DNA of 64,000 nt, taken from positions 14,827 to 78,826 of the forward strand of contig QAMH01000010.1 of NCBI GenBank assembly GCA_003149935.1, read 5' to 3'. This DNA comes from Coriobacteriia bacterium. Its GTDB lineage: Bacteria > Actinomycetota > Coriobacteriia > Coriobacteriales > QAMH01. The position numbers were made by a program, and so were the translations under genes. Of this stretch, positions 1,715-61,302 are shown piece by piece. Position 1 is the stretch's first letter, and each line of letters opens with the position of its first letter. The notes under the pieces are model-generated. The model was not told the origin of the DNA, made no database searches, and worked only from the letters and a program-made list of their open reading frames with translations.

Positions 1715-1794
1715 TCGGGATTCGCCATTATTTGGTTGATGCCGATATCGGGATTCGCCATAATAGGGCCAATACCGATATCGGGATTCGCCAT
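1715..1794. repeat. 33-bp tandem repeat, about 2.4 copies, core TCGGGATTCGCCAT
   Basis: TCGGGATTCGCCAT occurs at 1715-1728, 1748-1761 and 1781-1794, exactly 33 bp apart. Copies 2 and 3 share the longer CCGATATCGGGATTCGCCAT. The last copy abuts the GGAGG RBS of the next gene. Confidence 0.9.
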
Positions 1795-1805
1795 TGGAGG
1801 CAAAG

Positions 1806-3164
1806 ATGCATCGTAACGCCATGGCTAGACTTATCGCATGGAAAGATGACCTTCGCAGAAAGCCGCTCATCATCAACGGGGCAAGGCAGGTAGGGAAGAC
1901 TTGGCTTGCGTTGGAATTCGGGAAGACTCATTTTGAGCAAGTCGCCCATGTAGTCTTTCTGGACAACGAGGAGATGCAGCGCGCTTTTGAAAGAAGCCTT
2001 GACCCAGATCGGTTGCTCACTATCATCGGTGCCGCGACAGGCACGAACCCACAATCGGGAGACGTCCTCGTCTTTCTGGATGAAATCCAAGAATGCCCCC
2101 GGGCGCTGACATCCCTCAAGCGCTTCTGCGAGGAAAGACCCGAGATTCCCGTTATCGCTGCGGGCTCCCTCCTTGGACTTGCCCTCAATCGTGCAACGGA
2201 CACAGCTCCCAATGGAGCCTCCTGGCCTGTAGGCAAAGTAAACTACCTTGACTTGCATCCAATGGCATTCGACGAGTACCTCGAAGCTCTGGGACAGGGG
2301 CAGTTCGCGGACATCCTCAGGTCAGGCGATATGGAGATGGCAGACGCCTTTCACGAGCGTCTCGAAGAACATCTGAAGACATACATGTACGTGGGGGGAA
2401 TGCCCGAGGCTGTTACGGAGTACGTGGAAAGCGGAGATTTCGAACGCGTGCGTCAAGTGCAGACAGAGCTCATCAACGGATACGAACGCGACTTTGCAAA
2501 GCACGTGCCCAACCCAACCACGACCGAGCGAATCAGGCAAACGTGGAAATCAGTCCCCAGACAACTTGCCCGTGAAAGCGACATGAAGCGCTTTACCTAT
2601 GCAGCGATAGAGGAGCATGCGCGCGGCCGTGACTATCGTGATGCAGTAGCATGGCTCATCGACGCCGGACTCGTGACGAAAGTCGAGCGCATATCGAAAC
2701 CGGGAATACCCTTGGCAGGATATGCGGACAGCTCCTATTTCAAGCTCTACCTTCTCGACATCGGATTGCTGGGTGCAATGACCTCGCTTGACGCGAGCTC
2801 CATCATCATGGGGAACAAGCTATTCACAGAGTACAAGGGTGCTTACGCAGAGCAGTACGTCTGCCAACAGCTCGTGTCAACCAATTCGTGTGTCCCCTAT
2901 TATTGGTCGGCAGATGGGAAGAACAAAAAGGGCGAAGTAGACTTCGTCGTGCAGAATGGTGCTTCGGTTTTGCCAGTCGAAGTCAAGGCCGAGGAAAACG
3001 TCAGGGGCTCAAGCATCGCCAACTTCGCAAAACGCTATGACATACAGAAATCCGTACGCTTCTCTGCTAAACCTTATAAAGACCAGGGCTGGCTTGTCAA
3101 CGTCCCCTTGAACATGGCGGAATTTCTGTTCAAGGTGCCCGCCTTGCGTGATGGTGCCATGTAA
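1806..3164 (+). CDS. AAA-family ATPase of the AAA_14/DUF4143 type
   Basis: Track ORF starts at TTG 1794. ATG 1806 sits 5 nt after GGAGG. Walker A GARQVGKTW, Walker B LVFLDEIQ. The C-terminal part is typical of DUF4143 proteins (recognition from memory). Confidence 0.8.
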   Translation: MHRNAMARLIAWKDDLRRKPLIINGARQVGKTWLALEFGKTHFEQVAHVVFLDNEEMQRAFERSLDPDRLLTIIGAATGTNPQSGDVLVFLDEIQECPRALTSLKRFCEERPEIPVIAAGSLLGLALNRATDTAPNGASWPVGKVNYLDLHPMAFDEYLEALGQGQFADILRSGDMEMADAFHERLEEHLKTYMYVGGMPEAVTEYVESGDFERVRQVQTELINGYERDFAKHVPNPTTTERIRQTWKSVPRQLARESDMKRFTYAAIEEHARGRDYRDAVAWLIDAGLVTKVERISKPGIPLAGYADSSYFKLYLLDIGLLGAMTSLDASSIIMGNKLFTEYKGAYAEQYVCQQLVSTNSCVPYYWSADGKNKKGEVDFVVQNGASVLPVEVKAEENVRGSSIANFAKRYDIQKSVRFSAKPYKDQGWLVNVPLNMAEFLFKVPALRDGAM

Positions 3165-3210: not shown

Positions 3211-3270
3211 CTTTCGTGTATACTCGTATGCCTGACCTTGATGGCTCACGGCAGGCGGAAAGGAGACAGC

Positions 3271-5010
3271 ATGGCGCAACGCTCGGCACGGCAGATGAGC
3301 GTCGACGAGCTGCGCACGCAGATCTCCCAGCGCCTGCGCTCCAATGCCGCCTTTAGCAAAACCGTCTACCAAGACCAGCCCATCATCATGACGGGTAGCC
3401 AGCTCAAGAGCTTCGTGCCGGATGCCATCCGCGAGGCCCGCCAGCTCGCGAAGCAGGGTTACGCACGTAATCTCAGCGTCGTCGACGTCTTTTACGAGCA
3501 AGCGCGGCTCCTTGCCGGTTACGAGGACGACTTCGAATTCATCGGCACGTTTTCGCATTACTACCCCAGCTACGAGGACATGAGCAACGAGCAGCTACGC
3601 GGCTATTTTGCGTGGCGCACCAAGGTACGTCACGGCAACATCGAGCAAGGCTCGCTCTCCTTTGCCTACGTCTACCTCTACGAGCTTATCAACCTCATCG
3701 GCGTCTCAAGCGCGCAGGACGCCTATGACACGCTGCTCGCCTTCGGCACGGCGTACCGCCGCTTCGACACGCGCTTCGGCCAGCTCTTCGATACCTGGCT
3801 CGATGATTTCGTCATCTACTACGGCCTGGATGCAGGCTTGCTGCGCACGCGCTCGTTCGCCAAGCGCGATGCCGCCTTCGACGTGCTGCTGCACCATGAG
3901 ATGCATGCGGAAGGCGAGCTCTTCGATGCGCTTGTCACACTCAGTGGCTATGCGATCATGGACTCCCCCTTCTTCGTCGAGCACGAAGCCGAGCTGCGCC
4001 ACCTCGTTGCGCATGCCTACCGAGCTGCCGCCCAGCATCACGCCAAGCTCAAGACCACGCTACCCGCCAAGCTTGCCGGACGCCTCAAGAACGAACGCCT
4101 CTGGCTGTTCGAACGGGCCGTCTTCGCCAACCCACTCAACATTACAAGCGCCGAGTACCAGATCAGTCCCCACGACACCGTCTATTGTCGGGGCGCAGCC
4201 TGGTTCCGCACGCGCTACGAGAATCTCGAATATCCAATCCCCTGGGTCACCCAGCTGCTCGAGACTTGCGAGTGCATTCTGCGCGATGTCTACGCATACC
4301 CCAACACGCTCGAGCGCAAGCTCACAACCAAGTACCTGCTCAAGGCCGTCGAGACGCGGGCAAGTGAGCTCGCCGAGGAGACACGCCTGCGCGAGGAACG
4401 GGCCGTGCATATCGATTTTTCGCAGCTCGACCACATCCGCAAAGCAGCGAATGAGACCTGCGAGAAGCTCATCGTGGAGGAAGGGGAAGGGATTTCTCCA
4501 CTCCGCGGCCTTGCGGCCGCTCCGGTCGAAATGACAATAGGGAACGGCGTCCCTGCTGTCATTTCGAGCGTGCGAAGCGAGTCGAGAAATCCTTCCGCCC
4601 CTGCTGCCATTTCGAGCGAAGCGAACGAAGTGAGCGCAGTCGAGAAATCTCGACCCTTACGTTCTGCCTGCTGTGGCGAGGGAGATTTCTCCACTCCGGC
4701 GCTTCGCGCCTCCGGTCGAAATGACAACGGGAGCAGCCCATCCGCCCTCGGTCGAAATGACAGGGGGGACGGCCCATCCGCACCCTCGCTTTCCCCCAAA
4801 GAAATCGAACTTGTCGCATGCCTGCTCTCCGGCGGCTCGGTGCGCGAGTTCGAGCGCGCGCATGCCTGCATGGCATCCGTGCTCGTCGACTCCATCAACG
4901 ACAAGCTCTACGACGAGTTCGCCGATATCTGCATAGACGCCACCGGCGACGAGCCCGCCATCATCGAAGACTACGCCCCCGAGCTGCGCACGCTGCTCGG
5001 CCTGTCCTGA
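3271..5010 (+). CDS. sngA: TerB-N/TerB-C domain protein, Shango SngA-like
   Basis: Track ORF starts at TTG 3238. ATG 3271 follows AAGGAG by 6 nt. The N-terminal block MSNEQLRGYFAWRTKVRHGNIEQGSLSFAYVYLYELINLIG matches the TerB-N pattern. The C-terminal blocks IDFSQLDHIRKAANETCEKL and LVDSINDKLYDEFADICIDATGDEP match TerB-C style segments (memory). Confidence 0.7.
   Translation: MAQRSARQMSVDELRTQISQRLRSNAAFSKTVYQDQPIIMTGSQLKSFVPDAIREARQLAKQGYARNLSVVDVFYEQARLLAGYEDDFEFIGTFSHYYPSYEDMSNEQLRGYFAWRTKVRHGNIEQGSLSFAYVYLYELINLIGVSSAQDAYDTLLAFGTAYRRFDTRFGQLFDTWLDDFVIYYGLDAGLLRTRSFAKRDAAFDVLLHHEMHAEGELFDALVTLSGYAIMDSPFFVEHEAELRHLVAHAYRAAAQHHAKLKTTLPAKLAGRLKNERLWLFERAVFANPLNITSAEYQISPHDTVYCRGAAWFRTRYENLEYPIPWVTQLLETCECILRDVYAYPNTLERKLTTKYLLKAVETRASELAEETRLREERAVHIDFSQLDHIRKAANETCEKLIVEEGEGISPLRGLAAAPVEMTIGNGVPAVISSVRSESRNPSAPAAISSEANEVSAVEKSRPLRSACCGEGDFSTPALRASGRNDNGSSPSALGRNDRGDGPSAPSLSPKEIELVACLLSGGSVREFERAHACMASVLVDSINDKLYDEFADICIDATGDEPAIIEDYAPELRTLLGLS
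4489..4762. repeat. Cluster of 5 F1-family short repeats (TGTCATTTCGAGCG...GTCGAGAAATC and its inverse GAGATTTCTCC...GGTCGAAATGACA) lying in frame inside sngA-like CDS
   Basis: Units at 4489-4536 (inverse), 4557-4592, 4605-4652 (forward), 4681-4726 and 4745-4762 (inverse). The same family forms the intergenic array at 25612-25896. Confidence 0.85.
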
Positions 5011-5020
5011 AGGAGCTGTC

Positions 5021-6367
5021 ATGGCCACCAAGATCCCCAAACGCATCGCATCGACCGTGCTCAACTCCCTTAAGGGCGGCGTCGTGCCACGTGTCGGCCT
5101 GCCCTACGTCGCGGTCGGTCGTGAGGCGGAGATCGATGCGCTGCTCCACGACGTCGACATCATCGCCGACGGCGGGGCAACCTTCCGCTTCATCGTCGGC
5201 AAATACGGAAGCGGCAAGAGCTTCCTGCTGCAAACCATCCGCAACTATGCGATGGATCGTAACTTCGTCGTCGTCGATGCCGACCTCTCCCCCGAGCGCC
5301 GTCTCCAGGGCAGCCACGGCCAGGGCCTTGCCACCTACAAGGAGCTCATCCGCAACATGTCGACCAAGACACGCCCCGAAGGTGGCGCGCTCACGCTCAT
5401 CCTCGATCGTTGGATTTCGAGCGTGCAGCAAGACGTGCTTGCCGAAGGGCTCGAGCCCGGTACGGAAGCTTTCGCGCAGCGTGTCGAGATGCGCATCCAC
5501 GAAGTGGTGAGCACGCTCTCGGAGCTCGTGCACGGCTTTGACTTCGCGCAGCTGCTCGTCATGTACTACCGCGCCTACGTCAACGATGACGAGGACACCA
5601 AAGCCAAGGTCATCAAATGGTTCAGGGGCGAATACGCCAACAAGACCGAGGCCAAGACCGAGCTCGGCATCCGCATCGTCATCTCCGACGACGATTGGTA
5701 CGAGTACATCAAGCTTTTCGCATCCTTCCTCGTGCAAGCGGGCTACGCCGGGTTGCTCGTGCTCATCGACGAGCTCGTGAACATCTACAAGGTGCCCAAC
5801 TCCATCACGCGCCAGTACAACTACGAGAAGATCCTCACGATGTACAACGATACGCTGCAGGGTAAGGCGCAGCATCTGGGCATCATCATGGGTGGCACGC
5901 CCCAGTGCGTCGAGGACAAGCGCCGTGGCGTCTACTCGTACGAGGCACTGCGCAGCCGTCTGGCCGAAGGGCGCTTCGCCAGCCAGCAATACAAGGACAT
6001 GCTCGCCCCCATCATCCGTCTCGTGCCACTCACGCACGAGGAGCTCTTCGTACTCGCCGAGAAGCTCACCGCCATCCACGCGCAGCTCTTCGATTACGAG
6101 CCACGCCTGACCGACGATCAGCTCGTCCAGTTCATCAAGACGGAGTTCGAGCGTGTGGGAGCAACCACGCACATCACGCCCCGCGAGGTCATCCGCGATT
6201 TCATCGAGCTGCTCGACATCATGTACCAGAATCCCGACGCGCAGATGGACGAGCTGCTGGCAAGCGAAGCATTCACCAGCGCCATTGCGCCCGATGCTTC
6301 GAGTAACGTGAGCGTGGCTGCCGAGACAAGCGACCGGCAAGAGAACTTCTTCGAGTTCACGCTCTAG
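5021..6367 (+). CDS. sngB: P-loop ATPase of the DUF2791 (BrxC/BrxD-like) family, Shango SngB-like
   Basis: 448 aa. Walker A GKYGSGKSF, Walker B LLVLIDELV. Starts 10 nt after the sngA-like stop. Confidence 0.75.
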   Translation: MATKIPKRIASTVLNSLKGGVVPRVGLPYVAVGREAEIDALLHDVDIIADGGATFRFIVGKYGSGKSFLLQTIRNYAMDRNFVVVDADLSPERRLQGSHGQGLATYKELIRNMSTKTRPEGGALTLILDRWISSVQQDVLAEGLEPGTEAFAQRVEMRIHEVVSTLSELVHGFDFAQLLVMYYRAYVNDDEDTKAKVIKWFRGEYANKTEAKTELGIRIVISDDDWYEYIKLFASFLVQAGYAGLLVLIDELVNIYKVPNSITRQYNYEKILTMYNDTLQGKAQHLGIIMGGTPQCVEDKRRGVYSYEALRSRLAEGRFASQQYKDMLAPIIRLVPLTHEELFVLAEKLTAIHAQLFDYEPRLTDDQLVQFIKTEFERVGATTHITPREVIRDFIELLDIMYQNPDAQMDELLASEAFTSAIAPDASSNVSVAAETSDRQENFFEFTL

Positions 6368-6370
6368 GCG

Positions 6371-8695
6371 GTGATCATGGACGTCTTTGCCTCATATGCG
6401 CCCTTCATCCAGGACTTCATCTACCGTAACGGCTGGGAAAGCCTGCGTTCGGTGCAAGTCGCCGCCGCCGATGCCATCTTCAATTCCGAGGACAACGTCT
6501 TGCTGGCCGCATCCACGGCCTCCGGCAAGACCGAGGCTGCGTTCTTCCCCATACTCTCCCAGCTTGATGAGGACCCCTCCTCGAGCGTCGGCGTGCTCTA
6601 CATCGCACCGCTCAAGGCGCTCATCAACGACCAGTTCGGCCGTCTCACCGAGCTCTGCGAGGAGGCCGAGATTCCCGTCTGGCGTTGGCACGGCGACGTC
6701 GCGCAATCACGCAAGAGCAAGCTGCTCAAGCACCCGAGCGGCATCTTGCAGATCACGCCGGAATCCCTCGAAGCGCTGCTCCTGCACAAGCATTCCCACA
6801 TCCCCGCGCTCTTCGGCGACCTGCGCTTCATCGTCATCGACGAGATTCACTCCCTCATGCGCGCCGACCGCGGTGGTCAATGTCTCTGCCTCATCGAACG
6901 CCTCTCGCGTCTCGCATCATGCAGCCCGCGACGCATCGGGTTGTCGGCAACCATCGGCGACCTCGAGCTGGCCGGACGCTTCCTTGGCGCCGGCTCGGGT
7001 CGCGACACCATCATCCCCCGCATCGAGGACACGCAGCAGCGCTGGCGCCTGTCCATGTCTCACTTCTTCGTGGGAGAGGGCGCCGAGGAAATGGGTGAGA
7101 CACATTGGACAGGTACATCTGTCTCATTGGCAGAATCCAATGAGACAGATGTACCTGTCCAATGTGTCTCACCCTCCCCGCCCGAACCCGCCACCGATGC
7201 CGCTCCCGCAGGCGCGGACCTCGGCCTCGGCTACATCTTCGAGCATACGCGTGGCAAGAAGTGCCTCGTCTTCTGCAACTCGCGCGAGGAGGCCGAAGGC
7301 GTCACCACCACGCTACGTCGCTATTGCGAGGCCAACAACGAGCCCGACCGTTTCCTCATCCATCACGGCAACCTCTCGTCGGCCGTGCGCGAGAGCGCGG
7401 AAGACGTCATGCGCGACGAGGAGCTCGACCAGACGACCGTCACCACGGCCACCCTCGAACTCGGCATCGACATCGGTCGCCTCGAGCGCGCCTTCCAGAT
7501 CGATGCCCCCTTCACGGTGAGCGCGTTCTTGCAGCGCATGGGGCGTACGGGACGGCGAGGCTCGCCCCCGGAGATGTGGTTCGTCATGCGCGAGGACCGC
7601 GCCGAGCCGCGCACCACCCTGGGCGCGACCATCCCCTGGAAGCTCCTGCAGGGCATCGCACTCGTACAACTCTACCTCGAGGATCGCTGGGTCGAGCCAC
7701 CGCGACTCGACCGCCTGCCCTACAGCCTGCTCTACCACCAGACCATGGCAACCCTTGCCAGCGGGGGCGAGATGACGCCGGCCGAGCTCGCAGCCCGCGT
7801 CCTTACCCTCGGGTACTTTCATCGCGTGAGCAGCGAGGACTTCCGCGTCCTGCTACACCACCTCATCGACATCGACCACATCCAGCTCACCGAGGAGGGC
7901 GGTCTCATCGTCGGCATCGCAGGCGAGCGCGTCATCAACAGCTACCGCTTCTACGGCGTCTTCCAGGAAAACGAGGAGTACACCGTTCGCAACGAGTCCC
8001 AGGAGCTCGGCACCATCGTGCTGCCACCGCCCGTGGGCGAAAAGCTCGCCATAGCCGGTGCCACCTGGCTCGTCGAGGAGGTCGACCACAAGCGCCACCT
8101 CGTCTACGCCACGCAAGTAAAGGGCCAAGTGCCGGCCTACTTTGGCGACTGCCCCGGCGACATCAACACGGTCGTACTCGAGCGCATGCTGCGCGTGCTC
8201 ATGGAAGATGCGGATTATCCCTACCTCATGGACAACGCGCGCGGCAGGCTCGCCCAGGCCCGCTCGACCGCACGCAACGCCCATCTCGACCACATCCCGC
8301 TCGTTCGTCTGGGTGGCAACACCTGGGGGCTCTTCCCCTGGCTTGGCAGCTACGCCTTCCTCGCACTCGAGCGTTTCCTCAAGATCAAGTGCGCCGACCA
8401 GCTCCAACTCAAGGGTCTGGACTCGTCGCGTCCCTATTTCATGGAGTTTCGCATGAAGGGCGACGAGCAGCTCTTCTACGATGTGCTCGCGGAGCAGGCA
8501 ACCACACCGTTCGATCCCCTTGACCTCGTCTATCCCGACGAAATCCCCATCTGGGAGAAATACGACGAATACGTGCCCATCGAGCTCATCCGCAAGGGCT
8601 TCGCCGAGAGTGTCCTCGACATCGACGGCATGCTCAAGCGCGTGCGCCAGTGGTGCGGCCTGCCAGACGAGAAGCCGCTGCAGCTCCCGGGCTAG
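6371..8695 (+). CDS. sngC: Superfamily-2 DEAD/DEAH-box (Lhr-like) helicase, Shango SngC-like
   Basis: 774 aa. Motif I ASTASGKTEAAF, Ia YIAPLKALINDQ, II VIDEIHS, III SATIG, VI QRMGRTGRRG. GTG 6371 or ATG 6377 is the start, 3 nt after the sngB-like stop. Confidence 0.85.
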   Translation: MIMDVFASYAPFIQDFIYRNGWESLRSVQVAAADAIFNSEDNVLLAASTASGKTEAAFFPILSQLDEDPSSSVGVLYIAPLKALINDQFGRLTELCEEAEIPVWRWHGDVAQSRKSKLLKHPSGILQITPESLEALLLHKHSHIPALFGDLRFIVIDEIHSLMRADRGGQCLCLIERLSRLASCSPRRIGLSATIGDLELAGRFLGAGSGRDTIIPRIEDTQQRWRLSMSHFFVGEGAEEMGETHWTGTSVSLAESNETDVPVQCVSPSPPEPATDAAPAGADLGLGYIFEHTRGKKCLVFCNSREEAEGVTTTLRRYCEANNEPDRFLIHHGNLSSAVRESAEDVMRDEELDQTTVTTATLELGIDIGRLERAFQIDAPFTVSAFLQRMGRTGRRGSPPEMWFVMREDRAEPRTTLGATIPWKLLQGIALVQLYLEDRWVEPPRLDRLPYSLLYHQTMATLASGGEMTPAELAARVLTLGYFHRVSSEDFRVLLHHLIDIDHIQLTEEGGLIVGIAGERVINSYRFYGVFQENEEYTVRNESQELGTIVLPPPVGEKLAIAGATWLVEEVDHKRHLVYATQVKGQVPAYFGDCPGDINTVVLERMLRVLMEDADYPYLMDNARGRLAQARSTARNAHLDHIPLVRLGGNTWGLFPWLGSYAFLALERFLKIKCADQLQLKGLDSSRPYFMEFRMKGDEQLFYDVLAEQATTPFDPLDLVYPDEIPIWEKYDEYVPIELIRKGFAESVLDIDGMLKRVRQWCGLPDEKPLQLPG
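7093..7174. repeat. Perfect 38-bp-stem inverted repeat (6-nt loop) inside sngC-like CDS, TGAGACA/TGTCTCA family
   Basis: 7093-7130 is the exact reverse complement of 7137-7174 (checked base by base). Translated in frame as ...GETHWTGTSVSLAESNETDVPVQCVSP... between helicase motif III and the second RecA-like domain. Confidence 0.95.
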
Positions 8696-8768: not shown

Positions 8769-8815
8769 TGCAAAAATCGCCTAAAAATGCAAAAATCGCC
8801 TAAAAATGCAAAAGC
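8769..8815. repeat. 19-bp tandem duplication TGCAAAAATCGCCTAAAAA x2 plus partial third copy
   Basis: 8769-8787 equals 8788-8806, and 8807-8813 restarts the unit. Each junction creates an ATG (8787 and 8806), and these are in different frames. Confidence 0.9.
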
Positions 8816-9933
8816 CAATCTTATCCGAAAGGCCTTATATGGTGCCGAATCCTTTCACTCCCACATTTGGACGAATTCCGCTCTTGATGACGGGAAGAGA
8901 TGCCATCATAGAAGAGATGGAGCAGGCTTTCGATATTGGTTCGGGCGACCCCAATTTATCGACAATCTACACTGGCGCCCGTGGCACGGGAAAAACCGCG
9001 CTCTTGCTCTATCTATCGCGTATCGCATCGGCCCATGGTTGGATAGCCGTTAATGTCACGGCCATTCCCGGGATGCTCGAAGATATTCTTGAGCAGACCA
9101 AGCAGGGAGCCGCGCAGTTCCTCGAAGCCTCTGACAATCCAAGATTGAGGAGTCTCACCATTGGCCAATTTCTTGGTTTGGAATGGGACAACCCGACGCA
9201 GGAGCGTGGCAACTGGCGTACGCAGATGGGAAAGATCATTGCCTCGTTAAACGATCAGGAGATCGGGCTGCTGATCACCGTAGATGAAGTTAATCCCAAG
9301 CTCGATGAAATGGTTCATCTTGCAACCACATACCAGCACTTTGTGGGAGAAGAGCGACAGGTGGGCCTGCTACTTGCCGGTCTTCCAGGCAATGTCAATT
9401 CGCTTTTGCGAAACGAGTCCGTTTCGTTTTTACGCAGAGCAAACCAACACAAGCTGGTGCGCATATCCGATGAAGACATTGCCGAGGGCATCAGAACCAC
9501 TATCGAGGAAGGTGGCCGTTCTATTTCACTTGAGGCCCTCTCATCAGCAGCTAAAGCTAGCGAGGGCTTTCCTTACCTCATGCAACTTGTAGGCTACCAA
9601 AGCTGGGCCAGAAACCCCGATAGCGAGACGGTCTCCGAAGAAGATGTTCACTGGGGCATAGCACGTGCCAGAGCAAGCTTCTCCGAACGAGTGCTCGACG
9701 CAACGTATTATGACCTCTCGGATGGGGACATTCGCTTTCTTCGGGCAATGCTTGCCGATACGAGGGAAAGTCGCTTATCGGATATCGCCTCGAGAATGGG
9801 AGAGGCCAGCAACTACACAAGCACGTACAAGCGTCGCTTGATAGAGCAGGGAGTCATAGGCGAGCGAGGGTCGTCCTACGTTTCTTTTGAGCTTCCCGGA
9901 TTCCGCGAGTACCTCGAAGACAGATTCAAATAA
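8806..9933 (+). CDS. ORC/Cdc6-like (AAA_16/Arch_ATPase-type) ATP-binding protein with probable C-terminal wHTH
   Basis: 375 aa. Walker A GARGTGKTALL, Walker B LLITVDEV. The N-terminal NPFTPTFG motif is common in this family. The true start may be ATG 8839 (MVPNPF...). Hand-counted lines are about 47-50% GC. Confidence 0.7.
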   Translation: MQKPILSERPYMVPNPFTPTFGRIPLLMTGRDAIIEEMEQAFDIGSGDPNLSTIYTGARGTGKTALLLYLSRIASAHGWIAVNVTAIPGMLEDILEQTKQGAAQFLEASDNPRLRSLTIGQFLGLEWDNPTQERGNWRTQMGKIIASLNDQEIGLLITVDEVNPKLDEMVHLATTYQHFVGEERQVGLLLAGLPGNVNSLLRNESVSFLRRANQHKLVRISDEDIAEGIRTTIEEGGRSISLEALSSAAKASEGFPYLMQLVGYQSWARNPDSETVSEEDVHWGIARARASFSERVLDATYYDLSDGDIRFLRAMLADTRESRLSDIASRMGEASNYTSTYKRRLIEQGVIGERGSSYVSFELPGFREYLEDRFK

Positions 9934-10383: not shown

Positions 10384-10420
10384 AAAATGAGACAATATCT
10401 CTGAGCAATTGTCTCATTTT
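10384..10420. repeat. Single unit of TGAGACA palindromic repeat family (13-bp stem, 11-nt loop)
   Basis: AAAATGAGACAAT (10384-10396) pairs with ATTGTCTCATTTT (10408-10420). The loop sequence resembles the other family members. Confidence 0.85.
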
Positions 10421-11276: not shown

Positions 11277-11344
11277 CGTGACAAGGGGGACGGGGGTTCT
11301 GTCACATCCATGGATGTGACAGAACCCCCGTCCCCCTTGTCACG
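11277..11344. terminator. 68-bp perfect palindrome (34-bp arms, no loop) between convergent genes; probable bidirectional terminator
   Basis: 11277-11310 is the reverse complement of 11311-11344 (CGTGACAAGGGGGACGGGGGTTCTGTCACATCCA | TGGATGTGACAGAACCCCCGTCCCCCTTGTCACG). Confidence 0.7.
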
Positions 11345-19817: not shown

Positions 19818-19890
19818 GATGAGACAGTTGCTCAGGGACGTTGTCTCATTTCTTCATAATGAGACAACGTCCCTGAGCAACTGTCTCATT
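19818..19890. repeat. Double (head-to-head) unit of TGAGACA palindromic repeat family; 32-bp perfect stem, 7-nt loop
   Basis: 19819-19850 is the exact reverse complement of 19858-19889 (checked base by base). Each half is itself a 9-bp-stem hairpin, AATGAGACA-N15-TGTCTCATT. Confidence 0.95.
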
Positions 19891-25611: not shown

Positions 25612-25896
25612 GCCCCCCCCCTTGTCATTTCGAGCGGAGCGGACGGGGCCGCGCCCCCCTGTCATTTCGAGCGAGGCGAACGGGGCCGCGCCCCCCCCTG
25701 TCATTTCGAGCGGAGCGAACGAAGTGAGCGGAGTCGAGAAATCTCGGTCTTTCGCTTAATAGACAGCAGCGGTGGAGATTTCTCCACTCCGGCGCTACGC
25801 GCCTTCGGTCGAAATGACAAGAGACAAACCTTACGGCCCCTTCGGTCGGAATGACAAGGGGTAGGCCTTACGGCCCCTTCGGTCGGAATGACAAAA
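25612..25896. repeat. F1-family repeat array: three direct units then three inverted units (large imperfect palindrome)
   Basis: TGTCATTTCGAGCG starts at 25623, 25660 and 25699 (37/39-bp spacing). Inverse units end in TCGAAATGACA at 25818 and TCGGAATGACA at 25856 and 25893. Confidence 0.9.
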
Positions 25897-49632: not shown

Positions 49633-49665
49633 AATGAGACAGTTACTCAGAGACGCTGTCTCACT
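49633..49665. repeat. Single unit of TGAGACA palindromic repeat family
   Basis: AATGAGACA-GTTACTCAGAGACGC-TGTCTCACT. Lies in a divergent promoter region. Confidence 0.8.
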
Positions 49666-50770: not shown

Positions 50771-52195
50771 ATGGAACGCGAGAACGCATGGAAGAGCTAT
50801 AGCGACAAGGATCTCGATGAGCTCGAGAAACTCAGCAACGATTACATCGAGTTCATCTCGGAGAACAAGACCGAGCGCGAATGCGTGAGCGCCTCGATCG
50901 CTCTGGCCGAAAAGGCCGGGTACAAGTCGCTCGCCAAGGCCATCAAGAAGCAGCGCAAGCTCAAGGCCGGCGACAAGGTCTACGCCCAGACCCACGGCAA
51001 GGCCCTCATCTTGGCGGTGCTCGGTACCGACCCGCTCGAAGACGGCTTCAACATCTTGGGCGCCCACATCGACTCGCCTCGCCTCGACGCCAAGCAAAAC
51101 CCGCTCTACGAGAACACGGACATCGCGCTGCTCGACACGCACTATTACGGCGGCATCAAGAAGTACCAGTGGGTCACGCTCCCGCTGGCTATCCACGGCG
51201 TCATCGCCCTCAAGGCGGGCAAGTCCATCGAGGTCCGCGTCGGCGAAGACCCATCCGACCCCGTGTTCTGCATCTCGGACCTCCTCCCCCATCTGGGGCA
51301 AAAGCAGATGGAGAAGAATGCCAAGGAGGTCATCGATGCTGAAGACCTCGATGTGATCGTGGGCAGCAGGCCGCTTCTCTTCGAGAAGGACAAGCTCAAC
51401 GACGACTCTCCCGCATGGGAGAAGGTCGCCGAGAAGGAGCCGGTCAAGGCATCCGTGCTCAAGTACCTTGCCGAGTACTACGGCATCGAGGAGGAGGATT
51501 TCCTCTCCGCCGAGCTCGAAATCGTTCCAGCCGGTCGTGCCCGCGAGATGGGCTTCGACCGCTCCATGGTCATCGGTTACGGCCAGGACGACCGCGTCTG
51601 CGCCTACACGTCGCTCGTCGCCCAGCTCGCCATCGAAAATCCCAAGCGCACCGCCGTCACCGTGCTGGTCGACAAGGAGGAGATCGGTAGCGTGGGCGCT
51701 ACGGGCATGGAGTCACTGTTCTTCGAGAACACCATCGCCGAGATCATGGAGCTCGCCGGCGAAGGCGGCCAGCTCAAGCTACGCCGCGCGCTCGGTGCGT
51801 GCAAGATGCTGTCCTCCGACGTCTCCGCCGCACTCGACCCCTGCTACGCGAGCGTCTTCGAGCCCAAGAACGCCGCCTACATGGGTCGCGGCCTCGTCTT
51901 CAACAAGTACACGGGCGCACGCGGCAAGAGCGGCAGCAACGACACGTCGGCGGAGTTCGTCGCCGAGGTGCGCCGCGTCATGGACGGTGCGGGCGTCGCG
52001 TTTCAGACCGCCGAGCTCGGTCGCGTCGACATCGGCGGTGGCGGTACGATCGCCTACATCCCGGCCAAGTACGACATGGACGTCATCGACAGTGGCGTGG
52101 CCGTGCTCTCGATGCACGCACCCTGGGAGATCACGAGCAAGGCCGACATCTACGAGGCCCGCAAGGGTTACGAGGCGTTCCTGAAGAACGCATAG
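50771..52195 (+). CDS. M18-family aminopeptidase
   Basis: ATG 50771 follows GGAGGG. GAHIDSPRLD and DKEEIGSVGATG metal-ligand blocks. Confidence 0.85.
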   Translation: MERENAWKSYSDKDLDELEKLSNDYIEFISENKTERECVSASIALAEKAGYKSLAKAIKKQRKLKAGDKVYAQTHGKALILAVLGTDPLEDGFNILGAHIDSPRLDAKQNPLYENTDIALLDTHYYGGIKKYQWVTLPLAIHGVIALKAGKSIEVRVGEDPSDPVFCISDLLPHLGQKQMEKNAKEVIDAEDLDVIVGSRPLLFEKDKLNDDSPAWEKVAEKEPVKASVLKYLAEYYGIEEEDFLSAELEIVPAGRAREMGFDRSMVIGYGQDDRVCAYTSLVAQLAIENPKRTAVTVLVDKEEIGSVGATGMESLFFENTIAEIMELAGEGGQLKLRRALGACKMLSSDVSAALDPCYASVFEPKNAAYMGRGLVFNKYTGARGKSGSNDTSAEFVAEVRRVMDGAGVAFQTAELGRVDIGGGGTIAYIPAKYDMDVIDSGVAVLSMHAPWEITSKADIYEARKGYEAFLKNA

Positions 52196-52200
52196 GTGAC
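52081..52200. repeat. Left 120-bp direct repeat (aminopeptidase 3' end; putative attL)
   Basis: 115/120 identical to 61141-61260 by manual alignment. Confidence 0.95.
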
Positions 52201-52217
52201 ATTTAGCTGATAGCCTT

Positions 52218-52250
52218 AAACGGGCGGTCGCACTTTGCGGCCGCCCGTTT
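52218..52250 (+). terminator. 14-bp-stem hairpin after the intact aminopeptidase gene
   Basis: AAACGGGCGGTCGC-ACTTT-GCGGCCGCCCGTTT (one G-U pair). Confidence 0.5.
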
Positions 52251-52521
52251 CGATTGACCAACGTCACTTCATTCCATTGGGATGCATGAAACTGACGATT
52301 ATGTGAGACCGCGGCAAGACCCGTGTAAGAAAATTTCGATTATGTGTGACTAATCGCAAAGCAACTTTCACACAATCGAGAAAACCCTACAATCACGGCT
52401 GGCCAACTTCACAAAATCGTAAATTTCCCGCACCCCCGTACCGCCGGCTACACATAATCGAAATTTCTTTGCATGCGAGCCCTATCACATGCGCACCATC
52501 GCAAATCGAAAGCCGCGCTTC

Positions 52522-53790
52522 TTACTGCTTATCAAAACTGATAAGGCGGCGAGGTATCGCAAAGGCGATGATGCCAGCAGCTAGATACACGATGCCCGTA
52601 ATTGCGAACAGAGCATAGTTGTTGGAGCCTGCACCAAGGGCGATGAGAACCGGTATGAGCCACGCTCCAAGGTTCTGCAACGTCGCTTGCAGACCGCCTG
52701 CAACACCCATTATCTCCGGCTCGCGGATAATCTCCTTCAACATGCCCAGAAGCGCCTTGCCAAGCGGATTCACAACGCCATTGAAAAAACCAGTTATGCC
52801 CAACAGCAAAACGACAAGCTCGCCATTGGGCATGAACCATCCGAACACGCATATCAGGAAGATACATAGGCATCCGCTCAAAATGCACGCCTGCGTTCTC
52901 TTCATGCCAATCTTTTCGAGAACGAACGGAAACAGGATGCTCACAGCCATCATTCCAAAGCTGTTGAGCGTAACCATGTTATTTGCAAAGATCTCCGTTA
53001 CCCCTTTCGAGGCTACGACAGCAGCCGTCAGACTCGACGCGAAGGTCGTGCCAGCTCCCATGGGCAAGGCAATGACCAGTGAGGCGATCCAAACCCAGGG
53101 TCGCTTGAAAACAGCGAGATACTCGGAAATGCCAATATGGCTGCCAGCTGACTCTGCCGCCTTCTGCGGCGTCTTTCCCAGAAGCATGAAGCACAGGACA
53201 CCAACTGTGGATACGACGCTCGTGGCGGTGAGGACGGCCATCGTCGATTCAAAAAGGGCGGGAAACTGCACGCCCAGTGTAATGCCCACCGGCGCTCCTG
53301 CGACGTAAAACCCCATCGCCAAGGCAATGCGATTCTTGAACCATAAGCTTAGGTACTTGAGCGAATTCGCATTGAGCCCGGCAAGGCCAAATCCTATGAC
53401 GAAAGTCGCAAGATAATATAGCCAGAACTGGCCTGTGGGATAGAATGCGACACGCATCCACACACCAGCCAACGATATAAGAGCGCCAATCTTCATGGCA
53501 GTCGAGACTTGTATCTTGTCTCCAAGAACACCAAACGGAATGGCAAACACGGCTCCGGTGAGAAAAGAAGCGGACGCGAGCACGCCAACATCGGCTGGAT
53601 TGATTCCGTAATCGCTTACCAAACGCGCGCCAACGCCGCCGGTAACGCCCACTGCACACTCGAGCGCGACGTGGCACAAAAAGATTCCTGCAAGGGCAAT
53701 CCACTTCTTGGCCCCGTAAGGGTCAAGAATACGCTGATCCGCGAGGGGCTTTGACGCGCAAGCCCCTCGCTGCTCTTCATTTAACGACAT
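52522..53790 (-). CDS. MFS transporter
   Basis: Start taken at MSLNEEQRG (ATG 53790) after GGGAG. Multi-spanning. Confidence 0.8.
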   Translation of the reverse strand: MSLNEEQRGACASKPLADQRILDPYGAKKWIALAGIFLCHVALECAVGVTGGVGARLVSDYGINPADVGVLASASFLTGAVFAIPFGVLGDKIQVSTAMKIGALISLAGVWMRVAFYPTGQFWLYYLATFVIGFGLAGLNANSLKYLSLWFKNRIALAMGFYVAGAPVGITLGVQFPALFESTMAVLTATSVVSTVGVLCFMLLGKTPQKAAESAGSHIGISEYLAVFKRPWVWIASLVIALPMGAGTTFASSLTAAVVASKGVTEIFANNMVTLNSFGMMAVSILFPFVLEKIGMKRTQACILSGCLCIFLICVFGWFMPNGELVVLLLGITGFFNGVVNPLGKALLGMLKEIIREPEIMGVAGGLQATLQNLGAWLIPVLIALGAGSNNYALFAITGIVYLAAGIIAFAIPRRLISFDKQ

Positions 53791-53926
53791 GGTCCATCTC
53801 CCTGCACTACCAGCTGTTGATGCGTTTATGAAACACATCGGCTGAAATAAGCGAATAATCCCTCATAGTGCATTTCTCCAAATCTCTCCTGGTCACCCAC
53901 AAGACGAAAGACCAGGTCGTCTTTTG

Positions 53927-54085
53927 CTATTCACCGGAGGGAGGCTTGGGAATGAAGATGTCGCGTTTTTTCGCATCATTGGCGACATGATTGTCTGCCA
54001 TGCCCATGCGCTCGTAGGAGGTAAGCTCCCTCTCCTCCTGAGCCTCCTCGACACGCTTTTCGTCAGCTGCACTTTCATCTGCCAT
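53927..54085 (-). CDS. Small acidic hypothetical protein, 52 aa (below track cutoff)
   Basis: MADESAADEKRVEEAQEERELTSYERMGMADNHVANDAKKRDIFIPKPPSGE. AGGAG lies 9 nt upstream. Preferred over the overlapping R-rich 61-aa track ORF. Confidence 0.35.
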   Translation of the reverse strand: MADESAADEKRVEEAQEERELTSYERMGMADNHVANDAKKRDIFIPKPPSGE

Positions 54086-54254
54086 GATGGTCTCTCCTTT
54101 TCTTTAGATCGTCAGCAATATCGCAAGACCTGGAACTCACCTAACGATGCGTTCCGTAGTCGCAAGTTGCCAACATGAACGAATGGGGGGGGTGCCCAGC
54201 CGGTTGGGGGCAAAACTCAGGGAAATAGCCGGCTGGGCAAACGGATGGACGGTA

Positions 54255-55511
54255 CTACTTGCCTTCCAGGTCCGGACGCACCGGAAGCACCTTCTTCTTG
54301 ACGTAGAGAGTGAGCATAACCGTAAGCACGAGGCTGACGATTGCAAGCCCGACGATGAGCGGCAGGCACGCGGCCCACACACCACCAGCGCCATCGATGA
54401 GGGCACTGGGCAGCGTCACTCCGAGAGCGCCACCGATGTTAGCGCCAATCATCATGATGCCCATAGCCATCGAGAGCGTCTTGGGATTCTTCAGGATATC
54501 GGGCACCCAAGCAAACGCCACCGGCATGTTGATCGTGGAAACGAACGAGTACCAGATGATGAAGATTGCCATGATGGCAGCCGGGACACTGAATACGACG
54601 AGGAACGTCACGATACTCACGGCGCATATCGCCAACATCAGCCAACCGCGCTTGGTCGGCTTGACGATATTGATGATGATGCCAATGAGCACACTGCCGA
54701 CAATGCCGCCAAGAGATCCCAGAGAAACCAGATTATTCGCATCTGCAGGATCCAGACCAGCGCCCATGGGGCTCGACAGGTAAGCCGGATACAGGCCAGT
54801 GTAAACAGAACATCCAAACGCCAGACCACAGCAGATGAGGGTGAGCAGCCAAGGGCCTGGCTCCTTCAAACCATCGACGATCGAAGCCTTCTCCTCTGGC
54901 TCATCGGTGCCATCGGCATCGGCAGCTTGCTGACCCGGATTCTTAATGAACAAAATGAACAACACGAGGGCGATGATCTGGCAAACGCCAACAACAATCC
55001 ACTCGCCCTGCCAGCCGAATGCAGGGACGACGCCATTAGCGATCTGAGCGACCAGAAGCTGCGCGACAGGAACCCAAATAACCCAGATACCATTGGGCAA
55101 GCCTCGTTGTTCAGGAGCGAAGCTTGCCGAGATAATCGCGACGCTTACCATGGTCAGACAGCCATAGGAAACAGCGTCGAGCACGCGGCTTGCGATAAGC
55201 AATTCGATACTCGGAGCAACGGCGCCCAAAAGGCATTCCAGAATGCCGCAGACGATGACAATGATGCCAAATGTCTTGACGCCAACCTTCTGCATGATGC
55301 CACCGGCGGGAAGCGCGGTAACCAGACAACTGATACCGACAATGGACATCATCCAGCTGACCGTAGTCATGTCAGTCCCATAGAAGTTCATGATGTTGGG
55401 CATGTTGACAGGGACCTTGAACATGCCCATTGCAATAGTGATGCCCGCGAAAAAGACGATTGCAAACTGCAACCACGCCTTTGCCGGACTCATGGTTTGC
55501 TTGTTATCCAT
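54255..55511 (-). CDS. MFS transporter
   Basis: 418 aa. AAGGAG 6 nt upstream. Starts 9 nt after the stop of the ferredoxin-subunit gene. Confidence 0.85.
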   Translation of the reverse strand: MDNKQTMSPAKAWLQFAIVFFAGITIAMGMFKVPVNMPNIMNFYGTDMTTVSWMMSIVGISCLVTALPAGGIMQKVGVKTFGIIVIVCGILECLLGAVAPSIELLIASRVLDAVSYGCLTMVSVAIISASFAPEQRGLPNGIWVIWVPVAQLLVAQIANGVVPAFGWQGEWIVVGVCQIIALVLFILFIKNPGQQAADADGTDEPEEKASIVDGLKEPGPWLLTLICCGLAFGCSVYTGLYPAYLSSPMGAGLDPADANNLVSLGSLGGIVGSVLIGIIINIVKPTKRGWLMLAICAVSIVTFLVVFSVPAAIMAIFIIWYSFVSTINMPVAFAWVPDILKNPKTLSMAMGIMMIGANIGGALGVTLPSALIDGAGGVWAACLPLIVGLAIVSLVLTVMLTLYVKKKVLPVRPDLEGK

Positions 55512-55520
55512 CGTAGCTCC

Positions 55521-56327
55521 TTATTCCTTTTCCAGTGGAAAGTCACCTATGTTGAGGCTTTCTTGCAACGTGATGGGCTTGTTCTTCACACCTTTGAAAC
55601 CTGGAGCTTCAATGTTCAAAACATACTCACCAAGATTCAGGTGCTTGAACCAAAAGTCACCAAACCCATCCGTCTCGGTCTCGAGAGTCTCGCCACTGGG
55701 GCAGCGCAAAGTCACCTTCGCACCCTCAATGATGAGATCGGCTTCTGGATCCCATACTTCACCGGAAATAAAGAAGCCGAATGGGTTGAGATAATGCACG
55801 CGCGAACCCGAATCAGCGATATTGAACGCGCCGGTATCTTGCGCAATCTCGTCAGCAAACTCCTCTTCATCACCGAAACGTAGGGCACCCGTTGCGCAGG
55901 CATCAACACAGTGAGGGAGCTCTCCTTCATCGACAAGGTGAGCGCAACCGGTGCATTTTTGAGCAAGGCTCAAATCTTCGTTCCAATACACCGCACCATA
56001 CGAGCAAAGATGCACCAGGTCTTTCCTACCCACGGCCTTCTCAGGATCGATGATAACCAGGCCATCCTCGCGACGATACACGGCTTCGGGTGCAGCCTCG
56101 ATCAAAGGGCAATACTCACAGTGACGGCACAGCATCGGACGATACTCAATGCGAACTTTAGGGACTTGGCCATGAGTGCGCTCGTACATCTTGAGCCAGA
56201 ATTGTCCCGTATTTGGCTCTGGCTTCGAGTAGGGCGGCCATGCATTGCCAACGTTCTCATCCTTGCATGCAAGCTGACAGGCGTAACAGCCGTTGCACTT
56301 GTTAAGATCAACGACGAAAGTCTTCAT
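55521..56327 (-). CDS. 4Fe-4S subunit with C-terminal beta-sandwich tail, pyrogallol transhydroxylase small-subunit (BthL)-like
   Basis: 268 aa. CNGCYACQLACKDEN, CRHCEYCP, REDGLVIIDPEKAVGRKDLVHLCSYGAVYWNEDLSLAQKCTGCAHLVDE. Tail GAKVTLRCPSGETLETETDGFGDFWFKHLNLGEYVLNI. Confidence 0.8.
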   Translation of the reverse strand: MKTFVVDLNKCNGCYACQLACKDENVGNAWPPYSKPEPNTGQFWLKMYERTHGQVPKVRIEYRPMLCRHCEYCPLIEAAPEAVYRREDGLVIIDPEKAVGRKDLVHLCSYGAVYWNEDLSLAQKCTGCAHLVDEGELPHCVDACATGALRFGDEEEFADEIAQDTGAFNIADSGSRVHYLNPFGFFISGEVWDPEADLIIEGAKVTLRCPSGETLETETDGFGDFWFKHLNLGEYVLNIEAPGFKGVKNKPITLQESLNIGDFPLEKE

Positions 56328-56329
56328 CC

Positions 56330-58915: not shown

Positions 58916-59056
58916 GAAATCCTACCTCCTTCAAAAAGACGCTCTCTCTTTTCTCAGAATTCTCGATACGTTTTGCGCGCGATGAACGTTGAGAATTCCC
59001 TCCGAACGTATTATTGGAAGGGGCTTGGCTGCTTGAACAGTCACTATGATTTCATA

Positions 59057-60052: not shown

Positions 60053-60065
60053 GCAGTTAGTATCC

Positions 60066-61269: not shown

Positions 61270-61302
61270 AATGAGACAGTTGCTCTGAGCAACTGTCTCA
61301 TT
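61270..61302. repeat. Collapsed TGAGACA-family palindrome (16-bp arms), probable bidirectional terminator
   Basis: AATGAGACAGTTGCTC-T-GAGCAACTGTCTCATT. It equals the outer arms of the 19818-19890 element with the centre missing, and overlaps the PIN gene stop codon. Confidence 0.85.

What the first reader, a model, noticed from the sequence alone, without database searches (positions are those of the whole stretch)
7093..7174. Perfect 38-bp-stem palindrome inserted in frame between the two RecA-like domains of the Shango-like helicase
7093-7130 is the exact reverse complement of 7137-7174 (all 38 pairs checked), with a 6-nt loop. Its arms start and end with GTGAGACA / TGTCTCAT(T). This is the terminal signature and head-to-head architecture of the TGAGACA repeat family, which is otherwise seen only outside genes in this window.

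The insert is read through as ...GETHWTGTSVSLAESNETDVPVQCVSP..., after motif III (SATIG) and before the second helicase lobe (KKCLVFCNSREEAE).

A hairpin this stable inside an mRNA or on replicating DNA should affect translation, RNA stability or genome stability. The second gene of the same operon carrying a different repeat insertion is a striking coincidence.
Basis: seen in the sequence. Interest (0 to 1): 0.6.

Follow-up and report, generated by a model that had tools for sequence, protein, structure and literature searches.

The report
Mobile REPIN palindrome inside Shango helicase
The perfect 82-bp palindrome is a REPIN, an inverted pair of a 31-bp mobile repeat that a RAYT-type transposase spreads through Collinsella-like gut bacteria, sitting in frame in the variable linker of the anti-phage helicase SngC; this kind of event is already known, here seen in a new host and gene.

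Summary
Window 7093-7130 and 7137-7174 are perfect 38-nt reverse complements around a 6-nt loop, read through in frame as residues 241-268 of SngC, the helicase of a complete Shango operon (SngA/B/C).

Each arm holds a 31-bp unit, TGAGACA-N17-TGTCTCA. That exact unit is dispersed: 98 metagenome loci, as singlets and inverted doublets. In L143 and L199, two inverted copies directly flank a 249-aa Y1/HUH transposase whose best curated match is REP-associated tyrosine transposase. A 54% paralogue is flanked by a different unit with the same termini. The palindrome is therefore a REPIN of a REP/RAYT system in Coriobacteriia.

SngC orthologues 93-99% identical carry other states at the same linker site: the 29-bp sister class as doublet or singlet, or no REP at all. 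Alleles show compensatory changes in both arms and inverted spacers, so this is neither an assembly artefact nor an ancestral peptide.

True intragenic copies are rare: SngC and one RlmKL-like gene among about 246 elements. In-frame REP dimers in genes, including helicases, are already published, so this is a new member of a known kind. Any effect of the hairpin on expression is inferred, not shown.

The parts
7093..7130 (+). Left arm of the palindrome (REPIN arm 1, including GGG outer flank and TTGG inner flank)
   Evidence: 38 nt, 100% complementary to 7137-7174
7096..7126 (+). REP unit 1, 31-bp class 'F2': TGAGACA-CATTGGACAGGTACATC-TGTCTCA
   Evidence: Identical to the units that flank the RAYT gene in L143 and to 98 metagenome loci.
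7131..7136 (+). 6-nt loop CAGAAT; found inverted (ATTCTG) in alleles L007/L161/L208
7137..7174 (+). Right arm of the palindrome (REPIN arm 2)
7141..7171 (-). REP unit 2, the exact reverse complement of unit 1
6371..8695 (+). sngC, Shango helicase (774 codons). The REPIN encodes residues 241-268, in the linker between RecA1 and RecA2.
   Evidence: PADLOC SngC E = 1e-271. Pfam DEAD 27-196 and Helicase_C 289-397. Lhr-core 5v9x aligns to residues 34-214 and 315-396.
5021..6367 (+). sngB (BrxC/BrxD-type ATPase)
3238..5010 (+). sngA (TerB_N/TerB_C). Its linker (about 4520-4775) is built from a second dispersed repeat family.
10388..10416 (.). REP singlet, 29-bp class 'F1', intergenic, flanked by an A-run and a T-run
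19819..19889 (.). F1 REPIN (inverted doublet, 32-nt perfect arms, 7-nt spacer) between convergent ORFs
49635..49663 (.). F1 REP singlet, intergenic
61272..61300 (.). F1 REP singlet (self-complementary form), intergenic

Best explanation
The palindrome is a REPIN (a REP doublet that forms a hairpin). It consists of two inverted copies of a 31-bp REP unit (TGAGACA-N17-TGTCTCA) from a REP/RAYT system of Collinsella-like Coriobacteriia.

The family is dispersed, presumably by a cognate Y1/HUH 'REP-associated tyrosine transposase' acting on single-stranded hairpin DNA, as in the IS200/IS605 family. This mobilisation step is inferred.

One copy sits in the length- and sequence-variable linker between the two RecA lobes of the Shango helicase SngC. 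It survives there because it keeps the frame, has no stop codon in that frame, and adds about 27 residues to a tolerant segment (shown by comparison with orthologues).

Once in place, the doublet behaves like other copies of the family. Its arms stay perfectly complementary through paired changes, its spacer flips orientation, and doublets and singlets interconvert. This is best explained by intra-palindrome template switching or gene conversion during replication (pattern shown, mechanism inferred).

Any consequence for the host is inferred only. A 38-bp perfect stem in the sngC mRNA should slow ribosomes and offer an RNase III-type substrate, and the DNA palindrome should be a local instability site.
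For: 1. Dispersed family. The exact 31-bp unit occurs in 98 stretches of human-gut metagenome contigs, several per assembly, as singlets and inverted doublets.

2. Cognate transposase.
- L143:1738-2484 (L199 is 99% identical) encodes a 249-aa protein that matches Pfam Y1_Tnp at 51.8 bits against a cutoff of 23.
- Its best NCBIfam family is REP_Tyr_transpos.
- It carries an HUH motif (NHFHLLV) and a Tyr motif (RYIHENP).
- It is flanked directly by two inverted copies of the very unit in SngC, at L143 1679-1709 and 2485-2515.
- A 54% paralogue at L198:5267-6016 is flanked by inverted 33-bp units with the same termini.
- Homologues are widespread in Coriobacteriia, and JGI names one of them RayT.

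3. REPIN architecture. 45 of 48 same-class adjacent pairs are exact reverse complements, with spacers of 7-26 nt. The 31-bp unit alone barely folds (-4 kcal/mol, z = -0.6), whereas the doublet folds at -47 kcal/mol.

4. Insertion, not ancestry. SngC orthologues 93-99% identical have different states at the same site:
- an F1 doublet (L001);
- an F1 singlet, 39 nt shorter (L002/L003);
- a GC-rich linker with no REP (L004/L005).
An 80%-identical orthologue has a short linker with no repeat (L008).

5. Dynamics.
- L006 has A>G in arm 1 and T>C in arm 2, so the palindrome stays perfect.
- L007/L161 have the loop inverted.
- P0034 is the flipped-spacer form of the F1 allele.
- The same behaviour appears at other loci: spacer flips in L120/L152, L146/L167 and L162/L182; paired arm changes in L192 and L200/L201.

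6. Precedent. REP dimers inside genes that encode 20-30 aa, many in repair genes and helicases, are reported in PMC3733652. REPINs with compensatory hairpin changes are reported in PMC3116915.
Against: - The units lack the GTAG or CGTC head that tags the REP superfamilies catalogued in PMC3733652.
- The transposase scores 65 bits against NCBIfam REP_Tyr_transpos, below the curated cutoff of 80. It also carries an extra C-terminal region of about 110 aa.
- No RAYT gene lies in this 64-kb window. Co-occurrence of the SngC allele (L161) and the RAYT (L199) is shown only within one metagenome assembly, not within one genome.
- No clean empty site was found, so the exact insertion boundaries and any target duplication are undefined.
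- Transposition itself was not observed.
- Effects on SngC expression or function are untested. The AlphaFold model was too poor (mean pLDDT 45) to show that the linker is disordered.
Confidence: 0.85

Rival explanations
1. The doublet did not arrive as a REPIN. A single REP unit was present at the site, and the palindrome formed in place by an inverted duplication (hairpin-primed synthesis or replication template switching).
For: Singlet and doublet forms alternate at the same locus in at least five places, including SngC itself (L001 versus L002/L003; L034/L056 versus L114; L088 versus L094; L133 versus L156; L159 versus L140/L149). Arms are almost always perfect (45 of 48). Palindromy often extends a few variable nucleotides beyond the unit into the outer flank.
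Against: Doublets and singlets differ in flank preference: doublet outer flanks are G-rich (GGG/CCC or GA/TC), while singlets have AA/TT. This is expected if doublets move as units. The 31-bp unit alone is a weak hairpin, whereas the doublet is the stable structure. No F2 singlet allele of SngC was seen. Doublet-to-singlet collapse explains the same polymorphisms.
Confidence: 0.2
2. The hairpin is kept by selection as a cis-regulatory RNA or DNA element that tunes or switches Shango expression, for example by ribosome pausing, RNase III cleavage or replication-dependent instability. On this view it is not a merely tolerated passenger.
For: The stem is extremely stable. Complementarity is preserved through paired changes. 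Both SngA and SngC of the operon carry repeat-derived linkers. The alleles persist in many samples.
Against: Paired changes and perfect arms are the rule for intergenic copies of the family too, so they need no gene-specific selection. About half of the close orthologues work without any REP at this site. There is no terminator-like tail and no Rfam family. No expression data exist.
Confidence: 0.1
3. The palindrome is an assembly or sequencing artefact, such as a chimeric fold-back read.
For: Perfect palindromes can arise from fold-back chimeras, and many contigs in the collections break at these doublets.
Against: The same structure at the same site appears in independent assemblies from different samples, with a paired arm substitution (L006) and a flipped loop (L007, L161, L208). 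The reading frame is preserved. Protein clusters with this peptide hold more than 30 member sequences.
Confidence: 0.02
4. The segment is an ancestral part of the SngC linker whose DNA happens to be palindromic, and it resembles the repeats by chance.
For: SngC linkers vary in length in all lineages.
Against: The 31-mer is identical to 98 loci elsewhere and to the units that flank a transposase. Orthologues of 72-96% identity lack the peptide. Chance expectation is 0.
Confidence: 0.01

Closest known systems
REPIN/RAYT systems (REP doublets forming hairpins with REP-associated tyrosine transposases; Pseudomonas fluorescens SBW25, E. coli BIMEs; PMC3116915, PMC5581495)
   Same: Short dispersed palindromic units. 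Inverted doublets with short spacers that fold into one long hairpin. Compensatory changes across the hairpin. Singlets alongside doublets. A class-specific Y1/HUH transposase gene flanked by inverted units (a REPtron). Several classes, each with its own transposase paralogue.
   Different: The host is Coriobacteriia (Actinomycetota); I found no paper describing REPIN/RAYT there. The unit head is (A)ATGAGACA rather than GTAG. The classes share only 7-nt termini around unrelated 15-19-nt cores. The transposase is about 250 aa with an extra C-terminal region and scores below the NCBIfam RAYT cutoff. The spacers are very short (7-14 nt).
Intragenic REPs (Di Nocera et al. 2013, PMC3733652)
   Same: REP monomers and dimers inserted in frame in genes, with dimers encoding 20-30 residues. 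They are over-represented in DNA repair and replication genes, including UvrD/Rep and RNA helicases.
   Different: Those are GTAG- or CGTC-tagged REPs in Proteobacteria, Opitutus and Rickettsia. Here the host gene is an anti-phage defence helicase, and the site is polymorphic between two REP classes, singlet or doublet forms, and no REP.
Rickettsia palindromic elements (RPE; my own knowledge, and cited in PMC3733652)
   Same: Palindromic mobile DNA inserted in frame into protein-coding genes, tolerated because it adds a surface or linker peptide.
   Different: RPE-1 elements are longer (about 100-150 bp) and have no sequence relation or known RAYT link. They are largely fixed, not polymorphic among close strains.
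Quasipalindrome template-switch mutagenesis (Ripley model, E. coli studies; my own knowledge)
   Same: It explains simultaneous 'corrections' that keep two arms complementary, and inversion of the spacer between inverted repeats.
   Different: It is a general replication process, not a family of elements. Here it is invoked only for the maintenance and flip-flop of the doublet.

Membership tests
REP / REPIN-RAYT system | Short (20-40 bp) repeated unit with palindromic character, present in many dispersed copies | tested here: met
The 31-bp unit is only weakly self-complementary.
REP / REPIN-RAYT system | Units paired in inverted orientation with a short spacer, folding into one hairpin (REPIN) | tested here: met
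   55 adjacent pairs were found; 45 are exact inverted copies with spacers of 7-26 nt. The SngC doublet folds at -47 kcal/mol as DNA.
REP / REPIN-RAYT system | Class-specific Y1/HUH tyrosine transposase gene flanked by inverted units (REPtron) | tested here: met
   L143/L199 have a Y1_Tnp gene between inverted 31-bp units. L198 has a paralogue between inverted 33-bp units.
REP / REPIN-RAYT system | Transposase reaches the curated RAYT model threshold (NCBIfam NF047646) | tested here: not met
   It scores 65.3 bits against a cutoff of 80. RAYT is still the best and only NCBIfam hit. Pfam Y1_Tnp is above its threshold.
REP / REPIN-RAYT system | Conserved GTAG (or CGTC) tetranucleotide at one end of the unit | tested here: not met
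   All units begin (A)ATGAGACA and end TGTCTCAT(T); there is no GTAG or CGTC head.
REP / REPIN-RAYT system | Predominantly extragenic location | tested here: met
   Of the 20 longest stop-free frames that span elements, only SngC and an RlmKL-like gene have domains on both sides. The other window copies are extragenic.
REP / REPIN-RAYT system | RAYT binds and cleaves the unit as single-stranded DNA and mobilises it | not testable with these tools
   This needs biochemistry or read-level evidence of excision or insertion.
Shango defence system (host operon) | SngA (TerB) + SngB (ATPase) + SngC (helicase) adjacent in one orientation | tested here: met
   PADLOC scores are SngA 1.7e-59, SngB 1.5e-194 and SngC 1.1e-271, for contiguous genes 3238-8695.
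Intrinsic transcription terminator | G+C-rich hairpin followed by a T-tract | tested here: not met
   No terminator-like site was called at 7093-7174; the stem is followed by CCCTCCCCGCCC.
Any curated RNA family (Rfam 15) | Match at or above the gathering score | tested here: not met
   There are only generic miRNA-precursor hairpin hits, far below gathering scores.

The most novel reading that the evidence does not exclude
REP units of this family act as exchangeable cassettes at fixed sites. In two unrelated genes (SngC and an RlmKL-like methyltransferase) and at three or more intergenic loci, the same site carries the 29-bp class in one lineage and the 31-bp (or 33-bp) class in another. The junction next to TGTCTCA is preserved, and in L157 a GTCTCA remnant of an earlier unit remains. 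This would mean RAYT-driven homing or replacement at the shared 7-nt termini. For Shango, it would mean a strain-variable hairpin that sets helicase dosage after transcription.
Probability: 0.15. Interest if true: 0.7.

Novelty: new member of a known kind. Interest (0 to 1): 0.4.

Why it matters
It explains an odd-looking feature with a known mechanism. It also documents, apparently for the first time, a multi-class REP/RAYT system in abundant human-gut Coriobacteriia.

It shows that a mobile hairpin can live in frame inside an anti-phage helicase and vary between closely related strains: REP class, singlet or doublet, and spacer orientation.

Practical consequences:
- These elements break short-read assemblies.
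- They create length variants in protein clusters.
- They can mimic 'hypervariable' defence-protein regions.

If the hairpin lowers SngC output, it would be a simple natural knob on defence-system cost.

Tried and rejected
- **Structure prediction.** The AlphaFold2 model of SngC from a 26-sequence alignment was too poor to say anything about linker disorder (mean pLDDT 45, pTM 0.33). No fold search was run.
- **Rfam.** A scan at a permissive E-value gave only sub-threshold miRNA-like hairpin hits.
- **Terminators and promoters.** The scan found nothing at the palindrome.
- **RAYT in the window.** A tblastn search with the RAYT against the window found nothing.
- **Stop-free frames as a proxy for coding insertions.** 73 of 246 elements are spanned by frames of at least 150 aa. 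Pfam checks of the top 20 showed that nearly all are antisense or read-through frames, or lie upstream of the first domain.
- **Variant C linker.** I looked for a REP in the 795-aa orthologues (L004) and found none; it is GC-rich with short direct repeats and slippage-type indels.
- **The 11277-11344 palindrome.** I tested it as a member of a dispersed class; it has no other copy in 1.66 Mb of fetched loci.
- **Empty site.** I searched for a clean empty allele of the SngC site to define the boundaries and any target duplication, and found none.
- **Literature.** Searches found no paper on REPIN or RAYT in Collinsella or Coriobacteriia, and nothing on SngC linker variation.
Full report
**Observation.**
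The sequence at 6900-7400 and the repeat finder confirm the palindrome. Window 7093-7130 (GGGTGAGACACATTGGACAGGTACATCTGTCTCATTGG) is the exact reverse complement of 7137-7174, with the 6-nt loop CAGAAT between them. The 38-mer, allowing up to three mismatches, occurs only as these two arms, and none is expected by chance. As RNA the region folds at -89.5 kcal/mol, against -35.3 +/- 3.8 for shuffles (z = -14.3). As DNA the 82-mer folds at -47.1 kcal/mol (z = -17).

**Host gene.**
- The palindrome lies inside ORF 6371-8695 and is read through as residues 241-268, MGETHWTGTSVSLAESNETDVPVQCVSP.
- Pfam places a DEAD domain at residues 27-196 and Helicase_C at 289-397.
- PADLOC identifies the three contiguous genes 3238-5010, 5021-6367 and 6371-8695 as SngA, SngB and SngC of Shango, with E-values of 2e-59, 2e-194 and 1e-271.
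- The closest solved structure, mycobacterial Lhr-core 5v9x, aligns to residues 34-214 and 315-396. The insert sits in the unaligned connector between the RecA lobes.
- The stem has no T-tail and is not called as a terminator. It matches no Rfam family above threshold.

**The repeat family in the window.**
TGAGACA occurs 16 times, against 8.5 expected. Apart from the SngC copies and two lone heptamers (7056, 45189), these form 29-bp units of the form TGAGACA-N15-TGTCTCA:
- 10388;
- 19820 and 19860, an inverted doublet with 32-nt perfect arms;
- 49635;
- 61272.

Their consensus is TGAGACA-RTTGCTCAGRGAYRY-TGTCTCA, with A-rich and T-rich flanks. None lies inside a long reading frame. The SngC unit is 31 bp, with an unrelated 17-nt core (CATTGGACAGGTACATC). 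It shares only the 7-nt termini with the 29-bp units.

**It is an insertion, and the site is polymorphic.**
The 120 closest SngC homologues (72-99% identity, 748-829 aa) differ mainly in the stretch between ...GEGAEEM and EPATDAAP.... The DNA of representatives shows the following states:
- L006, L007 and L161 carry the same 31-bp doublet as the window.
- L001 carries, at the same right-hand junction, a doublet of the 29-bp class: GA[TGAGACAGTTGCTCAGGGACGCTGTCTCA]TAAACCCCAA[reverse complement of that unit]TC.
- L002 and L003 carry only one such unit, 39 nt shorter and in frame.
- L004 and L005 have a 159-nt GC-rich linker with no such unit.
- L008 (80% identity) has a short linker with no repeat.

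Among the 120 representatives I counted 2 with the 31-bp doublet (plus the window), about 32 with the 29-bp doublet, about 13 with the singlet, about 55 with no REP, and 17 more distant ones with unrelated linkers. It is not met.

**The palindrome is maintained dynamically.**
- L006 differs from the window by A>G in arm 1 and the matching T>C in arm 2, so the palindrome stays perfect.
- L007, L161 and L208 have the loop inverted (ATTCTG).
- P0034 is the flipped-spacer form of the 29-bp allele.
- These differences between independent assemblies also rule out an assembly artefact.

**What the family is.**
A metagenome scan for the exact 31-bp unit returned 98 loci on many contigs, as singlets and inverted doublets. 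Pooling all fetched DNA gave about 240 non-redundant elements of several classes (29, 30, 31 and 33 bp), all sharing the TGAGACA/TGTCTCA termini. Of 48 same-class adjacent pairs, 45 are exact inverted copies, with spacers of 7-26 nt. Flanks are A at -1 and -2 for singlets, and G-rich (GGG/CCC or GA/TC) on the outside of doublets.

The decisive result came from an orthologous-locus comparison. Where L190 and L219 have one 31-bp unit, L143 has two inverted units 775 bp apart.
- The interval encodes a 249-aa protein with HUH (NHFHLLV) and Tyr (RYIHENP) motifs.
- It matches Pfam Y1_Tnp at 51.8 bits, against a cutoff of 23.
- Its only NCBIfam hit is REP-associated tyrosine transposase, at 65 bits against a cutoff of 80.
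- L199 has the same arrangement.
- A 54% paralogue in L198 is flanked by inverted 33-bp units.
- Homologues of about 250 aa are common in Coriobacteriaceae, Eggerthellaceae and Atopobiaceae. One source names them 'REP element-mobilizing transposase RayT'.

This is the REPtron organisation, and the doublets are REPINs as defined by Bertels and Rainey (PMC3116915). Those authors also report that compensatory changes across the hairpin are common. The 31-bp unit alone is a weak hairpin (-4 kcal/mol, z = -0.6), whereas the doublet is the stable structure. This fits the view that the doublet is the functional entity.

**Behaviour at other loci.**
- Singlet and doublet forms alternate at five or more orthologous loci.
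- Spacers are inverted between strains (L120/L152, L146/L167, L162/L182).
- Single units are inverted between their 7-nt termini (L011/L123).
- Outer-flank positions change in pairs (L200/L201; flanks listed).
- Different classes occupy the same locus (L019/L026, L112/L126, L126/L204).

These patterns are what replication template switching or gene conversion within a palindrome would produce. That mechanism is my inference from established work on quasipalindromes.

**How unusual is a coding copy?**
73 of 246 elements are spanned by stop-free frames of at least 150 aa. Pfam checks of the 20 longest showed that only two genes have domains on both sides of the element. One is SngC. The other is an RlmKL-like methyltransferase, with the element between UPF0020 and Methyltrans_SAM.

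In that second gene, L052 carries a 29-bp-class doublet and L157 a 31-bp-class doublet at the same place, in proteins 86% identical. L157 also keeps a GTCTCA remnant 23 nt downstream. So intragenic copies are rare (about 1-2% of elements). Both known sites are inter-domain linkers, and both show class switching.

**SngA.**
The SngA linker (about 4520-4775) varies among orthologues. It is built from another dispersed family (...TCGAAATGACA...), with 11 copies in the window against 1.1 expected, six of them at 25623-25893. There are more than 100 distinct contexts in the fetched loci.

**Comparison with what is known.**
Di Nocera et al. (PMC3733652) already describe REPs inside genes. [quoted passage not shown] Their paper also cites the Rickettsia RPEs as in-frame inserts. 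The present case is therefore a new member of a known kind. It differs in four respects:
- the host clade (I found no paper on REPIN or RAYT in Collinsella or Coriobacteriia);
- the absence of a GTAG or CGTC head;
- several classes sharing only 7-nt termini;
- a longer transposase that falls below the curated RAYT threshold.

**What it does.**
- Shown: the insert preserves the frame and the helicase motifs, and it persists in many samples.
- Inferred: it is a tolerated passenger in a permissive linker.
- Untested: a 38-bp perfect stem within the mRNA should impede ribosomes and be a good double-strand-specific RNase substrate, and the DNA palindrome is a likely hotspot for deletion to a singlet (45 nt, in frame). 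The AlphaFold model was too poor to use.

**Verdict.**
Interest is moderate. The most novel reading still open is class replacement at fixed sites, together with post-transcriptional dosing of a defence helicase.

Noticed in passing
window 4520-4775 (inside sngA) and 25623-25893: A second dispersed repeat family (...GGCGCTTCGCGCCTYCGS-TCGAAATGACA...) has 11 copies in the window against 1.1 expected. It makes up part of the hypervariable SngA linker, which is read through in frame, and forms a six-copy inverted cluster near 25.7 kb. More than 100 distinct contexts occur in the fetched Coriobacteriia loci, often next to TGAGACA units.
   Followed up: partly
window 11277-11344: A perfect 34+34-nt palindrome with no spacer lies just after the ORF ending at 11253. 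Its units are GTGACA-N16-TGTCAC, so the architecture resembles the REP doublets but with different termini. No other copy was found in 1.66 Mb of fetched loci.
   Followed up: partly
L052:4554-6278(-) and L157:2-1621(+): An RlmKL-like rRNA methyltransferase carries an in-frame REP doublet between its two domains. It is the 29-bp class in L052 and the 31-bp class in L157 (proteins 86% identical). L157 keeps a GTCTCA remnant 23 nt downstream, which suggests that one class replaced the other.
   Followed up: partly
L143:1679-2515 versus L190:302-332 and L219:1538-1568: The RAYT gene with its second flanking unit is present or absent at one orthologous locus. It behaves like a doublet whose 'spacer' is the transposase gene collapsing to a singlet.
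   Followed up: partly
L198:5222-6066: A 54%-identical paralogous Y1 transposase is flanked by inverted 33-bp units (TGAGACA-AAACCAGCCCGGCGGCATC-TGTCTCA). This indicates one transposase per REP class. The transposase for the 29-bp class was not found in the fetched DNA.
   Followed up: no
L130, L134, L150, L151, L164, L174, L177, L181, L188, L204, L208 (contig ends): Many metagenome contigs start or stop inside a doublet, so these REPINs are frequent assembly breakpoints in Collinsella-like genomes.
   Followed up: no
window 1794-3164 and 8806-9933: The Shango operon is preceded by a PADLOC candidate defence gene, PDC-S01 (AAA_14/DUF4143, E = 4e-165). It is followed by a 375-aa AAA_16 ORF. Orthologous contigs have a YjbQ gene at that position instead (L001-L007), so the neighbourhood looks like a variable defence island.
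   Followed up: no
window 1715-1787: Overlapping imperfect inverted or tandem repeats of CCGATATCGGGATTCGCCAT lie just upstream of the PDC-S01 gene (I4 and I6).
   Followed up: no
window 52000-62000: G+C drops to 0.49-0.55, against about 0.61 elsewhere. AT-rich inverted repeats lie at 52282-52474. This may be horizontally acquired DNA.
   Followed up: no
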